Below, in pieces: positions 30,886-32,082 of a stretch of DNA of 34,582 bases; position 1 is the first letter of the stretch, and each line of letters begins with the position of its first letter. The DNA is taken from UHGV virus genome UHGV-0129090; one strand, given 5' to 3'. The translations under genes were made by a program, and so were the position numbers. The notes beneath the pieces are model-generated. The model had not been told where the DNA came from, did not search any database, and saw only the letters and a program-made list of their open reading frames with translations. Origin of the DNA: a virus.

Positions 30886-31491
30886 TTATTTCTTGAATAG
30901 TGCCTGTACTTTGAATACTAAATCAGAAGGTACTTTTTGTAGTTCTTCTTGATAGGTTTTACCGCGAAGTAGTTCCATGTATACCTTACGACTAGTAGAA
31001 CGGTTGAATGTACTATTCAACGAGTAAGTTAGATCATCCAAAAGTACATTGCCATTAGTACCGAAGACGCTATACGCATGTAAGTAGATATCATGTATTA
31101 GTTCTACATCAAACTTATCTTGCATTGGTTTACGCTTACTAATACTGTATTTTACATTAGTGCTATGTGCCGTCCATTCGATGTTACTTACTTCGTTATT
31201 ATGCTTATCTTCATCAATATGATTGATAACTACATTTTTGTACTTCTTAGTAAGCCTTAAATATTCCTTACTATCAAATGTAGATCCCATCATGCGATGC
31301 ACTGCATGTTTATATGATTGATATTCATTATTAGTACGAAGATCAATCCATTTCTTTTTCTTTGAGTCGTATACTTCGGCATTCTTACTAATCCAGACAT
31401 CATCTACATAGTGTATAGTATTGTCGGTATTGTTATTGATCTTTGCTTTATATAAAGTAACTAGTACATTATTTTCATTTAGTTTTCTCAT
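30886..31491 (-). CDS. HNH homing-endonuclease-like protein (201 aa)
   Basis: AVHRMMGSTF ... VINHIDEDKHNNEVSNIEWTAHSTN matches the HNH_3-type H-N-(N)-H/N signature of free-standing phage HNH endonucleases. Confidence 0.7.
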   Translation of the reverse strand: MRKLNENNVLVTLYKAKINNNTDNTIHYVDDVWISKNAEVYDSKKKKWIDLRTNNEYQSYKHAVHRMMGSTFDSKEYLRLTKKYKNVVINHIDEDKHNNEVSNIEWTAHSTNVKYSISKRKPMQDKFDVELIHDIYLHAYSVFGTNGNVLLDDLTYSLNSTFNRSTSRKVYMELLRGKTYQEELQKVPSDLVFKVQALFKK

Positions 31492-31517
31492 ATGTATTCT
31501 TCCTTGAATATATTGAT

Positions 31518-31546
31518 ATGTACTTTTTGCTAAAGTGAAAGTACAT
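31518..31546. repeat. Palindrome ATGTACTTT-N11-AAAGTACAT between the RHH and HNH genes
   Basis: A 9-bp perfect inverted repeat read directly from the sequence. No convincing T-run follows on either strand. It is a candidate operator or RNA hairpin. Confidence 0.4.
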
Positions 31547-31561
31547 TTAAAACCTTTGATC

Positions 31562-31714
31562 TTAGTTAGAAGAAAGTACCGCGTGTTTATTGATTAGATA
31601 CTGTATTGCAGCACTACGCGTTTTCGCTTTTCCTTCGGTAATTAGTTTATCAAGTACATCGGCTTGGGCTTCAGATACTCGCACACCAATACTAATTGAT
31701 TTGTTTTCTTTCAT
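31562..31714 (-). CDS. Unannotated ribbon-helix-helix (Arc/CopG-like) protein, 50 aa
   Basis: Hand translation gives MKENKSISIGVRVSEAQADVLDKLITEGKAKTRSAAIQYLINKHAVLSSN. This has the beta-strand (ISIGVRV), helix, G/turn, helix pattern of RHH repressors. AAGGAAG lies 6 nt upstream of the ATG at 31714. It is below the 60-aa cut-off of the ORF track. Confidence 0.65.
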   Translation of the reverse strand: MKENKSISIGVRVSEAQADVLDKLITEGKAKTRSAAIQYLINKHAVLSSN

Positions 31715-31764
31715 ATAGCTTCCTTTTTTGTTGAACAAATTGCTAAAAATTAAATCCGAAAATA

Positions 31765-31782
31765 TCCCCGACGAATCGGGGA
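31765..31782. terminator. Hairpin TCCCCGA-CGAA-TCGGGGA with T-rich flanks on both strands
   Basis: A 7-bp stem. On the minus strand it is followed by TATTTTCGGATTT, and on the plus strand by GTATTATTTCTT. It lies between the small membrane gene and the RHH gene. Confidence 0.4.
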
Positions 31783-31899
31783 GTATTATTTCTTGGAGGA
31801 GATTACATAGTTATTTATCATTTTGGAATTGAAACGGCCTCAAATAACCGCCTACATGTACTATTATATCACTTTTTTTCATTTCATCTCAAAAATCAG

Positions 31900-32082
31900 C
31901 TAGATTTTTTTATAATTGATTGATTGGTATAGAAAAACTAATCCCTTCACTATATAAGCCAGTACCGCTACGCCTAGAAACATGAAAAAGCCTACATATA
32001 GTACCTTAATGAATCCAGATACCAGTACCACTACCCCTAAAACCATAATCAATGCCGTGTAGATCCAATCCATCATAATCAT
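31900..32082 (-). CDS. Small very hydrophobic two-TM protein (about 58-60 aa) next to the recombinase gene
   Basis: MIMMDWIYTALIMVLGVVVLVSGFIKVLYVGFFMFLGVAVLAYIVKGLVFLYQSINYKKI. AAAGGAGA lies upstream, which best fits the third or fourth Met as the start. The gene sits between two terminator-like hairpins, so it may be its own transcription unit. Confidence 0.55.
   Translation of the reverse strand: MIMMDWIYTALIMVLGVVVLVSGFIKVLYVGFFMFLGVAVLAYIVKGLVFLYQSINYKKI

What the first reader, a model, noticed from the sequence alone, without database searches (positions are those of the whole stretch)
30886..32082. Recombinase-proximal module: isolated two-TM hydrophobic gene, hidden 50-aa RHH gene, 9-bp palindrome and HNH endonuclease
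Seen in sequence: a ~60-aa, almost entirely hydrophobic protein lies between the int terminator (32116-32160) and a second hairpin (31765-31782), so it is possibly a stand-alone transcription unit. Next comes an Arc/CopG-like RHH ORF that the ORF track misses, with a good SD. Then there is the perfect palindrome ATGTACTTT-N11-AAAGTACAT, followed by an HNH_3-type endonuclease. Established knowledge: RHH proteins act as phage immunity regulators (P22 Arc/Mnt), as antitoxins, and in some systems as directionality factors. Small hydrophobic proteins next to integrases are often toxins or exclusion factors expressed from the prophage. Large serine integrases need a separate recombination directionality factor for excision, and none is recognisable here. 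Inference: the RHH protein is a candidate lysogeny regulator or RDF. The hydrophobic protein is a candidate lysogen-expressed effector. The HNH gene could be a homing element or a packaging cofactor displaced from the terminase.
Basis: partly seen in the sequence, partly recalled or inferred. Interest (0 to 1): 0.5.

Follow-up and report, generated by a model that had tools for sequence, protein, structure and literature searches.

The report
Prophage early-control module beside serine integrase
Next to the integrase of an uncharacterised E. coli prophage lies a conserved control block (small membrane protein, strong promoter with a short terminated leader RNA, swappable ribbon-helix-helix repressor cassette) followed by an optional homing endonuclease; the parts are mostly ordinary, but the arrangement and the leader RNA have not been described.

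Summary
All the described features exist at the stated coordinates. The window is E. coli yegD split by a 33-kb, 38% GC siphovirus-type prophage (about 674-33838). Comparison with about 30 related loci changes the interpretation.

- **Conserved array.** Every relative has the same order: large serine integrase, small two-TM protein, strong sigma-70 promoter, short leader with an invariant C/U-rich anti-SD-like motif, intrinsic terminator, RHH gene.
- **RHH.** It is under purifying selection. Its predicted DNA-reading strand is hypervariable, and each allele carries its own palindrome just upstream of its SD. Here that palindrome is TTTGTTCAACAAA (31727-31739).
- **Cassette exchange.** The operator plus RHH cassette is exchanged as a unit, with the breakpoint right after the terminator.
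- **RDF role.** RHH alleles and integrases assort independently, so an RDF role is unlikely.
- **9-bp palindrome.** It is real and conserved in the closest relatives, but it does not track the RHH allele.
- **HNH gene.** It is an I-HmuI-like homing endonuclease in a variable slot, not a packaging cofactor.
- **TM protein.** Its function is unknown.
- **Leader RNA.** No Rfam family matches it and no target was found.

This is a new variant of known kinds, of moderate interest.

The parts
32206..33804 (-). Large serine integrase (context; the attR junction with yegD lies at about 33838)
   Evidence: Pfam Resolvase + Recombinase + Zn_ribbon_recom. yegD is split at ACTGTTC.
32194..32222 (-). P1, a promoter-like site (TTGACA-17-TATAGT) overlapping the int stop codon
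   Evidence: Scores 11/12. It is one of the two best sites in 20 kb. Kept in L002 and present in a different form in the L004 type, but absent in L003 and L005.
32116..32160 (-). T1, an intrinsic terminator after int and upstream of the TM gene
   Evidence: Hairpin at -17.6 kcal/mol, z = -4.05, followed by a U-tract. The 5' flank carries AUUCUCC. The leader model weakly hits the L002 copy.
31900..32082 (-). Small two-TM membrane protein gene (60 aa; likely start M3 at 32076)
   Evidence: The ORF is kept at saturating divergence, with the motif G..MV(T/S)G.I(K/E).L. There are 61 homologues in E. coli, Salmonella, Citrobacter and Raoultella. It always lies between int and the RHH gene.
31863..31892 (-). 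P2, a strong sigma-70 promoter (TTGAGA-18-TGaTATAAT); predicted TSS near 31856
   Evidence: Scores 11/12 with an extended -10. A TATAAT hexamer with a -35 or TG element is found at the same place in every variant.
31795..31820 (-). Leader core: UGAUAAAUAA ... AUCUCCUCC (C/U-rich, anti-SD-like motif)
   Evidence: AUUCUCCU or AUCUCCUCC is invariant in all variants although flanks and lengths differ. The motif is predicted to be unpaired in the short RNA. No Rfam match.
31755..31782 (-). T2, an intrinsic terminator plus U-tract and conserved GGA; also the recombination boundary of the RHH cassette
   Evidence: Terminator-like and present in every relative. Three pairs of loci diverge immediately 3' of it.
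31727..31739 (.). Candidate RHH operator: palindrome TTTGTT-C-AACAAA, 2 nt upstream of the RHH SD
   Evidence: Unique in the window. Its arms are conserved in all loci with the KSISIGVR beta-strand allele while flanks diverge. Other alleles carry other palindromes at the same position. A 1-nt centre rules out an RNA hairpin.
31562..31714 (-). 50-aa ribbon-helix-helix protein
   Evidence: Pfam RHH_1 E = 0.006, below the cut-off. PGAP names it RHH. The AF2 model has pLDDT 85, and its top fold matches are RHH proteins with TM about 0.6, not significant. pN/pS is 0.19-0.31.
31518..31546 (.). Perfect 9-bp inverted repeat ATGTACTTT-N11-AAAGTACAT, at the 3' end of the RHH cassette and upstream of the conserved RBS UCAAGGAAG
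   Evidence: Exact. As RNA it folds at -6.9 kcal/mol, z = -2.7. A 38-nt island is identical in L051 and L054 amid diverged flanks. It is replaced in L002, L042 and L003 by other GUAC hairpins.
30886..31491 (-). HNH_3 / I-HmuI-like free-standing homing endonuclease (201 aa)
   Evidence: phrog_959 at 1.3e-10. PADLOC HEase at 1e-5. 1u3e at E = 0.3. Motif NHIDEDKHNNEVSNIEW...N. The slot is variable among relatives.
30847..30878 (.). 12-bp perfect hairpin between the HNH gene and the next gene; the loop reads GAGGAGAA on the gene strand and the T-run is on the + strand only
   Evidence: -21.9 kcal/mol, z = -9.9. L051 shows a compensatory C-G to U-A change.

Best explanation
This is the integrase-proximal control end of an undescribed family of Enterobacterales siphovirus prophages in which all but one gene, a + strand lysozyme, run in one direction. 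The proposed organisation is as follows.

1. int is followed by terminator T1.
2. A small two-TM inner-membrane protein sits in its own terminator-bracketed unit. It is probably made in the lysogen. Its role is unknown; exclusion of incoming phage is my leading guess.
3. Promoter P2 is strong and looks constitutive. It fires into a short leader carrying an exposed C/U-rich motif and then into terminator T2. Most transcripts should therefore end as a short RNA (about 100 nt here), and only read-through reaches the early genes.
4. Directly after T2 comes an exchangeable specificity cassette. It holds a palindromic operator, a 50-aa RHH gene and a 3' hairpin. The RHH dimer is proposed to bind the operator beside its own ribosome-binding site. 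There it would auto-limit transcription entering the early/replication operon. This resembles CopG in front of rep, or Arc in front of ant.
5. Next is a variable slot, occupied here by an HNH_3-type homing endonuclease. The replication genes follow.

Shown: gene order, conservation, selection, cassette exchange, and the co-variation between allele and palindrome. Inferred: that P2 and T2 function, that RHH binds 31727-31739, the direction of regulation, and any role for the TM protein.
For: - **Synteny.** The array int / small TM / P2-leader-T2 / RHH is found in the E. coli family members examined (the family is in 20 of 5426 complete genomes; about 13 loci were fetched), and in Salmonella, Raoultella, Pluralibacter, Pectobacterium, Kluyvera-type and IMG/VR contigs.
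- **Promoters.** P1 and P2 are the two best sigma-70 matches in 20 kb.
- **Leader unit.** A profile of the leader plus T2 hits once per locus on the gene strand in 33 of 33 sources, and nowhere else in the window.
- **RHH.** The beta-strand varies and the helices are conserved. pN/pS is 0.19-0.31. The model and fold neighbours (NikR, ParD, TCP) are consistent with RHH.
- **Operator.** TTGTTnAACAA is kept in five contexts that share the KSISIGVR strand, with diverged flanks. Other alleles have AAAAAGAATACTTTTT, AAAGATATCTTT or TGTGCACA at the same position.
- **Cassette exchange.** win/L002, L046/L048 and L037/L039 are identical through T2 and unrelated after it.
- **Downstream gene.** In many relatives RHH is followed by a 645-aa CyRepA1/DEAD-like replication protein.
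- **HNH.** The same phage also carries a GIY-YIG SegE-like gene.
- **No other regulator.** None of the 13 other early ORFs has a Pfam regulator hit, and there is no LexA box near the module.
Against: - No expression data exist. Promoter and terminator calls are consensus matches only.
- The candidate operator lies about 120 bp downstream of P2, and no convincing promoter overlaps it. Repression would therefore have to work as a roadblock, or through a weak promoter that I could not identify.
- Not every allele has an obvious palindrome there (L003, L039, L004 and L046 types).
- RHH family membership rests on sub-threshold sequence scores and a non-significant fold match.
- The TM gene is only weakly constrained in sequence (pN/pS 0.4-0.8), and no homologue has a known function.
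- A dark early ORF could be the true maintenance repressor.
Confidence: 0.5

Rival explanations
1. RNA-based immunity. The short P2-T2 transcript is itself the main lysogeny or immunity factor. It would be an abundant small RNA whose exposed anti-SD-like seed blocks translation of early genes, or promotes termination of read-through transcripts. RHH would be only a secondary regulator. This resembles P1 c4, P4 CI or Gifsy-1 IsrK.
For: - A strong promoter followed by a terminator is conserved in every member.
- The short RNA has the layout of a trans-acting sRNA: an unpaired seed, an A/U-rich stretch, and a terminator with a U-tail.
- The motif UUCAU-N-UUCUCCU mirrors an SD plus AUG.
- No CI-like repressor is recognisable.
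- IsrK shows the same promoter / sRNA / read-through-mRNA logic (PMC4825925).
- In the window, the leader can pair for 10 bp with the start region of the ORF at 30322-30804. It can also pair for 7 bp with a hairpin loop upstream of that ORF.
Against: - Cognate leader/target pairs are no more stable than non-cognate ones, for either the RHH or the TM start region.
- Identical leaders sit in front of unrelated RHH cassettes.
- The window-specific target sites are lost in L002 and were not found in L004, L005 or L026.
- No Rfam C4 or IsrK match.
Confidence: 0.2
2. The palindrome at 31518-31546 is the RHH operator. Two RHH dimers would sit on GTAC-centred half-sites 21 bp apart and control the HNH and downstream genes.
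For: - It is a perfect 9-bp inverted repeat.
- A 38-nt island is identical in L051 and L054 while the flanks have diverged.
- It is exchanged together with the RHH gene in L002, and the replacement repeat also has GTAC centres 21 bp apart.
- Half-site-like 9-mers are enriched locally: 8 observed against 0.7 expected.
Against: - L042 and L043 have the same beta-strand allele but carry other inverted repeats there.
- L005 and L026 have no intergenic space after the RHH gene.
- In L045 one arm has drifted with no compensating change.
- GUAC hairpins precede the conserved RBS UCAAGGAAG whatever the allele.
- Similar inverted repeats fill most early intergenic gaps.
Confidence: 0.12
3. The TM protein and RHH form a toxin-antitoxin or abortive-infection pair. 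This could be type II with an RHH antitoxin, or type I with the leader RNA as antitoxin.
For: - RHH antitoxins (ParD, RelB, CcdA) are common, and ParD is among the fold neighbours.
- The TM protein is small and very hydrophobic.
- An anti-SD-like RNA is encoded next to it, and the TM SD AGGAGAA is one of only two perfect complements to the motif in the window.
Against: - A promoter and a terminator separate the two genes.
- RHH consists of the 50-aa DNA-binding domain only, with no toxin-binding tail.
- Identical TM genes pair with RHHs only 25% identical (L046/L048), so there is no co-evolution.
- The complementarity is only the generic SD/anti-SD pairing, and it is lost in L002.
- No PADLOC hit.
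Confidence: 0.08
4. RHH is the recombination directionality factor of the serine integrase.
For: - It is small, it is an early gene, and it lies close to int.
- No other RDF is recognisable.
- RDFs share no common fold (PMC12286644).
Against: - RDFs bind their cognate integrase specifically (PMC12286644).
- Here RHH and integrase assort independently. win/L002: int 97%, RHH 48%. L046/L048: int 99%, RHH 25%. L042/L043: int 28%, RHH 98%. L051: int 27%, RHH 94%.
- The allele-specific DNA palindromes point to a DNA-binding regulator.
Confidence: 0.05

Closest known systems
CopG of plasmid pMV158 (cop-rep operon) and Arc of phage P22 immI
   Same: Each is a 45-53 aa RHH protein encoded as the first gene of an operon whose later genes are replication or anti-repressor functions. 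Each is expected to auto-repress through a short (pseudo)palindromic operator. This comparison rests on my knowledge of those systems.
   Different: - Sequence similarity is below family thresholds.
- The candidate operator lies downstream of the promoter and terminator, next to the RBS, rather than over the -35/-10 region.
- No antisense RNA like RNAII or sar was found on the opposite strand.
- The cassette is exchanged among phages like an immunity region.
IsrK of Salmonella prophage Gifsy-1; P1 c4 and P4 CI RNAs; lambda PR'-tR' 6S RNA
   Same: A prophage promoter gives a short terminated RNA, and read-through of the same terminator produces the mRNA for downstream regulatory genes (PMC4825925).
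   Different: - No Rfam match to C4, IsrK or any other family.
- The leader is much less structured, and its only invariant part is a C/U-rich motif.
- No specific pairing partner was found.
- No Q-like or N-like antiterminator gene was recognised.
I-HmuI (PDB 1u3e) and other HNH_3 free-standing phage homing endonucleases
   Same: - The H-N-N motif (NHID..K.NN...NIEW...N).
- Size of about 200 aa with a C-terminal extension.
- A sporadic intergenic position in a phage that also carries a GIY-YIG SegE-like gene.
   Different: - It is only distantly related (E = 0.3 against 1u3e; Pfam score below the cut-off).
- It is not inside an intron.
- The target site is unknown.
- A homologue 27% identical occupies the same slot in L005, so it is an old resident rather than a recent invader.
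Prophage 'morons' and small membrane exclusion proteins (HK97 gp15, T4 Imm)
   Same: It is a small inner-membrane protein gene with its own promoter-like site, bracketed by terminators in a prophage. The comparison rests on my knowledge of those systems.
   Different: - It is present in every family member at a fixed position, not variably.
- At least two unrelated sequence types fill the slot.
- It has no sequence similarity to any named protein.
- Its function has not been tested.

Membership tests
Ribbon-helix-helix (Arc/MetJ/CopG) DNA-binding proteins | Sequence match to an RHH family model above its curated threshold | tested here: inconclusive
   Pfam RHH_1 gives E = 0.006 and 16.9 bits against a cut-off of 20.5. 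The NikR RHH domain gives E = 0.02. PGAP labels the identical protein as RHH. There is no PDB sequence hit.
Ribbon-helix-helix (Arc/MetJ/CopG) DNA-binding proteins | A beta-alpha-alpha fold that dimerises to form a two-stranded DNA-reading sheet | tested here: inconclusive
   The AF2 monomer has pLDDT 85, helices at 15-26 and 33-49, and an extended N-terminus. The best Foldseek neighbours are the TCP domain, NikR, ParD and ParB-pCXC100 (TM about 0.6, rmsd about 2 A), but E is about 2. The dimer was not modelled.
Ribbon-helix-helix (Arc/MetJ/CopG) DNA-binding proteins | Specificity residues on the N-terminal strand, with a matching short (pseudo)palindromic operator | tested here: met
   Residues 6-13 are hypervariable while the helices are near-invariant. 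The palindrome next to the SD co-varies with the strand allele across about 12 contexts. This evidence is indirect; binding was not tested.
HNH_3 / I-HmuI-type homing endonuclease | beta-beta-alpha-metal motif with a catalytic His and Asn residues | tested here: met
   The motif 'VINHIDEDKHNNEVSNIEWTAHSTN' is read directly from the sequence. Pfam HNH_3 covers residues 84-113 (E = 1e-3, below the cut-off). phrog_959 scores 1.3e-10. PADLOC HEase scores 1e-5. 1u3e scores E = 0.3.
HNH_3 / I-HmuI-type homing endonuclease | Sporadic presence or absence between otherwise collinear genomes | tested here: met
   The slot after the RHH gene holds an HNH gene (win, L002, L051-55; a distant allele in L005), unrelated ORFs of 77-164 aa, or nothing (L003).
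HNH_3 / I-HmuI-type homing endonuclease | Site-specific cleavage of the endonuclease-free allele | not testable with these tools
   This needs an in vitro cleavage or co-infection assay.
Recombination directionality factor of a large serine integrase | Specific partnership with the cognate integrase | tested here: not met
   Integrase identity and RHH identity are uncoupled in both directions. RDFs bind their cognate integrase specifically (PMC12286644). Physical binding was not tested.
Type II toxin-antitoxin system with an RHH antitoxin | A co-transcribed, adjacent pair; an antitoxin with a toxin-binding tail; co-evolution of the partners | tested here: not met
   A promoter, a leader and a terminator lie between the genes. 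RHH is a bare 50-aa domain. The same TM gene is found with RHHs only 25% identical.
Type I toxin-antitoxin system | A small hydrophobic toxin plus an RNA with extended complementarity to its mRNA | tested here: inconclusive
   The hydrophobic protein is present. Only generic SD/anti-SD complementarity is seen, cognate pairs are no better than non-cognate ones, and no convincing antisense promoter was found.
C4 / IsrK-type phage regulatory RNAs (Rfam) | Match to the family covariance model | tested here: not met
   There is no hit at gathering thresholds across the whole window. At E <= 10 in 31400-32300 there are only two chance-level hits, both on the + strand.
Packaging-associated HNH (HK97-type terminase cofactor) | A small HNH protein (PF01844) adjacent to terS/terL and present in all family members | tested here: not met
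   The gene is of the HNH_3 type, lies 7.5 kb from terS (22859-23455), and is absent from many relatives.

The most novel reading that the evidence does not exclude
This widespread family of Enterobacterales prophages has no recognisable CI-type repressor. It may maintain or gate lysogeny with a previously undescribed RNA element. A constitutive promoter would make a short terminated RNA with an exposed anti-Shine-Dalgarno/anti-start-codon motif. That RNA would work together with an exchangeable RHH-plus-operator specificity cassette placed directly after the terminator. If so, this is a new type of phage immunity region.
Probability: 0.2. Interest if true: 0.7.

Novelty: new variant of a known kind. 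Interest (0 to 1): 0.45.

Why it matters
This prophage lineage has no cultured relative in the phage collection searched. It is present in E. coli, Salmonella (hundreds of contigs), Citrobacter, Raoultella, Pectobacterium and other genera. I found no paper describing it.

Three things follow from working out its control module:
- It would add a lysogeny or early-gene switch built differently from the CI/Cro model.
- It would add a set of naturally orthogonal RHH/operator pairs only 50 aa long.
- It narrows the search for the RDFs of several new serine integrases, which integrate at yegD, at msyB and at other sites. Such integrases are useful as genome-engineering tools.

If instead the parts turn out to be ordinary, with RHH as a simple autorepressor and the TM protein as an exclusion factor, the result is mainly better annotation of genes currently labelled 'hypothetical'.

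Tried and rejected
- **Rfam.** No family matched, either at gathering thresholds over the whole window or at E <= 10 over 31400-32300.
- **Specific sRNA target.** An all-against-all matrix of duplex energies between leaders and the RHH or TM start regions showed no cognate advantage. In the window the best hit is the start region of the ORF at 30322-30804 (10 bp), plus the loop of the hairpin at 30847-78 (7 bp). These sites are not conserved in L002, L004, L005 or L026.
- **Antisense small ORF behind the mirrored SD+ATG.** The peptides range from 4 to 61 aa and are not conserved. The window and L003 have no start codon. No antisense promoter was found.
- **GTAC site at the P2 start (31856) as the operator.** It changes in L002, but it is also absent in L051, which has the window's RHH allele.
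- **A helix clamping T2 (UCUCC...GGAGA).** It appears in several minimum-free-energy folds, but only the invariant UCC/GGA is shared, so covariation cannot be assessed.
- **Structured covariance model.** MAFFT did not align the hairpin arms, so the model is sequence-only. It was used only as a specificity check.
- **LexA box near the module.** None.
- **Cultured phage relatives.** None at the DNA level. The integrase has at most 30% identity to any phage record.
- **Defence-system models.** Only 'HEase' for the HNH gene.
- **Literature.** Nothing on a yegD prophage or on an RHH-type RDF.
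Full report
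**Context.** The window is E. coli chromosome. The gene yegD is split at a shared ACTGTTC core by a prophage of about 33 kb and 38% GC, spanning roughly 674-33838. All phage genes but one, a lysozyme on the + strand, run on the - strand. Structural genes identify a siphovirus: terS, terL, portal, a fused protease/major head protein, tape measure and a J-like fibre. The right end holds a large serine integrase at 32206-33804.

The family is in 20 of 5426 complete E. coli genomes, always at yegD. It has no DNA match in the phage collection, and the integrase reaches only 23-30% identity to any phage record. I found no paper on it.

**Observation check.** Three qualifications apply.
- The RHH ORF is not hidden. 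PGAP annotates the identical 50-aa protein as 'ribbon-helix-helix domain-containing' in a 98% identical genome.
- The hydrophobic ORF probably starts at its third codon (32076), because the SD abuts the first ATG. Relatives are 58-59 aa.
- The 9-bp palindrome is one of about ten perfect inverted repeats of at least 9 bp, nearly all in intergenic gaps (18 seed hits against 4.0 +/- 2.3 in shuffles). GTAC is common throughout the phage.

**Comparative anatomy.** I collected about 30 related loci:
- E. coli (L001-L003, L030-L039);
- IMG/VR contigs (L004, L005, L026);
- Pluralibacter (L029) and Pectobacterium (L040/41);
- Kluyvera-type and unassigned contigs (L042-45);
- Salmonella (L046-48) and Raoultella-type (L049/50);
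- E. marmotae-type (L051-55).

All share one order:
1. large serine integrase;
2. terminator;
3. a hydrophobic protein of 45-63 aa;
4. a near-consensus sigma-70 promoter;
5. a leader of 25-140 nt;
6. an intrinsic terminator;
7. 40-60 nt further on, a 46-53 aa RHH gene;
8. a variable slot;
9. replication-type genes, often a 645-aa CyRepA1/DEAD-like protein.

**The hydrophobic gene.** The ORF survives at saturating synonymous divergence. It keeps a hydrophobic span of about 45 residues, broken only by a conserved (S/T)G-x-I-(K/E) turn, and a basic tail. That pattern fits a two-TM hairpin.
- A profile search finds 61 homologues in E. coli, Salmonella, Citrobacter and Raoultella, all labelled 'hypothetical'.
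- A second, unrelated type with a PLKIP motif fills the same slot in L029, L040 and L045.
- Sequence constraint is weak (pN/pS 0.4-0.8). The C-terminal tail is frameshifted in some strains without loss of the ORF.
- No Pfam, PHROG, NCBIfam or PADLOC family matches.
- The gene is flanked by the two best promoter-like sites in 20 kb (P1 and P2, each 11/12) and bracketed by T1 and T2.

Its function remains a guess. A lysogen-expressed membrane protein, for example one that excludes incoming phage, is the leading reading.

P2 lies at 31892-31863 (TTGAGA-18-TGaTATAAT). It is followed about 75 nt later by T2 (31782-31765). Every relative has the same unit. The only invariant leader sequence is a C/U-rich AUUCUCCU or AUCUCCUCC, usually preceded by UUCAU. 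Together these mirror an SD plus AUG. An A/U spacer, a CCCC...GGGG hairpin, a U-tract and GGA follow.
- In the predicted short RNA the motif is unpaired, which is the layout of a trans-acting sRNA.
- A profile of the unit hits once per locus, on the gene strand, in 33 of 33 sources, and nowhere else in the window. Most sources are training sequences or near-copies, so this shows specificity, not discovery.
- Rfam has no match.

I could not find a target. Cognate leader/start-region pairs are no more stable than non-cognate pairs. Window-specific complementarities are not conserved. Mirrored antisense ORFs are not conserved either.

By architecture the nearest precedents are Gifsy-1 IsrK (PMC4825925), P1 c4, P4 CI and lambda PR'-tR'. 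The first is from the paper; the others are from my own knowledge. Whether the unit is an attenuator, an sRNA gene or both is unresolved.

**RHH.** The sequence scores are sub-threshold (Pfam E = 0.006). The AF2 model is confident (pLDDT 85). Its best structural neighbours are RHH proteins (TCP domain, NikR, ParD), but the matches are not significant for a 50-residue domain. Purifying selection is clear (pN/pS 0.19-0.31).

The strongest evidence comes from comparing relatives. Helix residues are nearly invariant, whereas strand residues 6-13 differ between alleles. Each allele has its own palindrome 2-10 nt upstream of the SD.

| RHH strand allele | Loci | Palindrome upstream of the SD |
|---|---|---|
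| KSISIGVR | window, L045, L042, L043, L051-55 | TTGTTnAACAA |
| H(P/S)VS.KLND | L002, L005 | AAAAAGAATACTTTTT |
| NQVGVKLND | L026 | AAAGATATCTTT |
| KNTAFGVRLND | L049 | TGTGCACA |

For the KSISIGVR allele the flanks have diverged and the centre base is free to vary. The window copy, at 31727-31739, is unique in the window. Its 1-nt centre excludes an RNA hairpin, so it is a DNA site.

Three pairs of loci (win/L002, L046/L048, L037/L039) are identical through T2 and unrelated immediately after it. The operator-RHH cassette is therefore exchanged as a unit, like an immunity region.

I conclude that RHH is most likely an allele-specific DNA-binding autoregulator of the early/replication operon. 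Two weaknesses remain. No promoter overlaps the site, and some alleles show no clear palindrome.

**RDF hypothesis.** RHH and integrase identities are uncoupled in both directions.

| Comparison | Integrase identity | RHH identity |
|---|---|---|
| win / L002 | 97% | 48% |
| L046 / L048 | 99% | 25% |
| L042 / L043 | 28% | 98% |
| win / L051 (L051 is integrated at msyB) | 27% | 94% |

Because RDFs bind their cognate integrase specifically and are not syntenic with int (PMC12286644), an RDF role for RHH is unlikely. The same uncoupling, together with the intervening promoter and terminator, argues against a TM/RHH toxin-antitoxin pair.

**The 9-bp palindrome.** It belongs to the 3' end of the RHH cassette.
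- It is swapped with RHH in L002, where the replacement repeat also has GTAC centres 21 bp apart.
- It sits in a 38-nt island that is identical in L051 and L054 while the flanks differ. So it is probably functional in this lineage.
- It does not follow the RHH strand allele (L042 and L043 differ). It is absent where RHH abuts the next gene (L005, L026). In L045 one arm has drifted without compensation.
- All cassettes end with an A/U-rich GUAC hairpin a few bases before a conserved RBS, UCAAGGAAG.

I read it as an inter-cistronic hairpin or boundary element rather than the operator, with low confidence. A second RHH-binding mode is not excluded.

**HNH.** The motif NHIDEDKHNNEVSNIEW...N, phrog_959 (1.3e-10), PADLOC 'HEase' (1e-5) and a weak I-HmuI match support an HNH_3-type homing endonuclease. 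The slot is variable:
- this gene in the window, L002 and L051-55;
- a 27%-identical homologue in L005;
- unrelated small ORFs elsewhere;
- nothing in L003.

The phage also carries a GIY-YIG SegE-like gene. The HNH gene lies 7.5 kb from terS and is not universal, so a packaging-cofactor role is unlikely.

**Verdict.** The individual parts are of known kinds. The fixed array is new as an arrangement: TM gene, promoter/anti-SD leader/terminator, and swappable RHH cassette. It occurs in a widespread prophage family with no recognisable CI-type repressor. It may represent an undescribed switch. I rate it moderate interest (0.45) and a new variant of a known kind. Nothing here was tested experimentally. 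Promoter, terminator, operator and all functional assignments are inferences.

Noticed in passing
window 700-33830 (whole prophage): The tetranucleotide GCGC is completely absent from 33 kb, where about 46 copies are expected. CCGG and GGCC are also depleted, and GTAC is 2.3 times over the mononucleotide expectation. This suggests strong counter-selection against an HhaI-type restriction site.
   Followed up: no
window 24858-24881, 25384-25405, 28993-29015 (also 30275-30305): Intergenic hairpins in the early region share the stem AGCCCAC...GTGGGCT. This looks like a family of regulatory or terminator stem-loops in a single long co-directional operon.
   Followed up: no
window 30847-30878: A 12-bp perfect hairpin (z = -9.9) whose T-run is on the + strand only, so it would terminate transcription running against the phage genes. 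On the gene strand its loop reads GAGGAGAA. L051 shows a compensatory C-G to U-A change.
   Followed up: partly
window 1909-2397 (-), 2387-2839 (+), 2867-3133 (-): There is a second homing-endonuclease-like gene here (GIY-YIG, SegE type, 2.6e-16). Beside it lie the phage's only + strand gene (a lysozyme) and a possible holin.
   Followed up: no
L051-L055 compared with the window and L052: The same TM / RHH / HNH / next-gene block is joined to two unrelated serine integrases (27% identity) that use different attachment sites, beside msyB and within yegD. The integrase module is exchanged independently of the early region.
   Followed up: partly
L005, L026 and L049, P2 region: An inverted repeat GGACA...TGTCC brackets the spacer of promoter P2 in three variants. 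It is only partial or absent in the others, including the window. It may be a site for a regulator that is not allele-specific.
   Followed up: no
window 29840-30322: A gap of about 480 bp with no - strand ORF of at least 70 aa, in the otherwise tightly packed early region. No tRNA or Rfam hit. A relative (L003) has a 'tRNA-OTHER' annotated in its early region.
   Followed up: no
window 31485-31514 (+): A weak + strand promoter-like site (TTCTCA-18-TATATT, 9/12) would start transcription at the left arm of the 9-bp palindrome, antisense to the RHH gene. The -10 is kept as TATAGT in L051. Sites of this quality are common by chance.
   Followed up: partly
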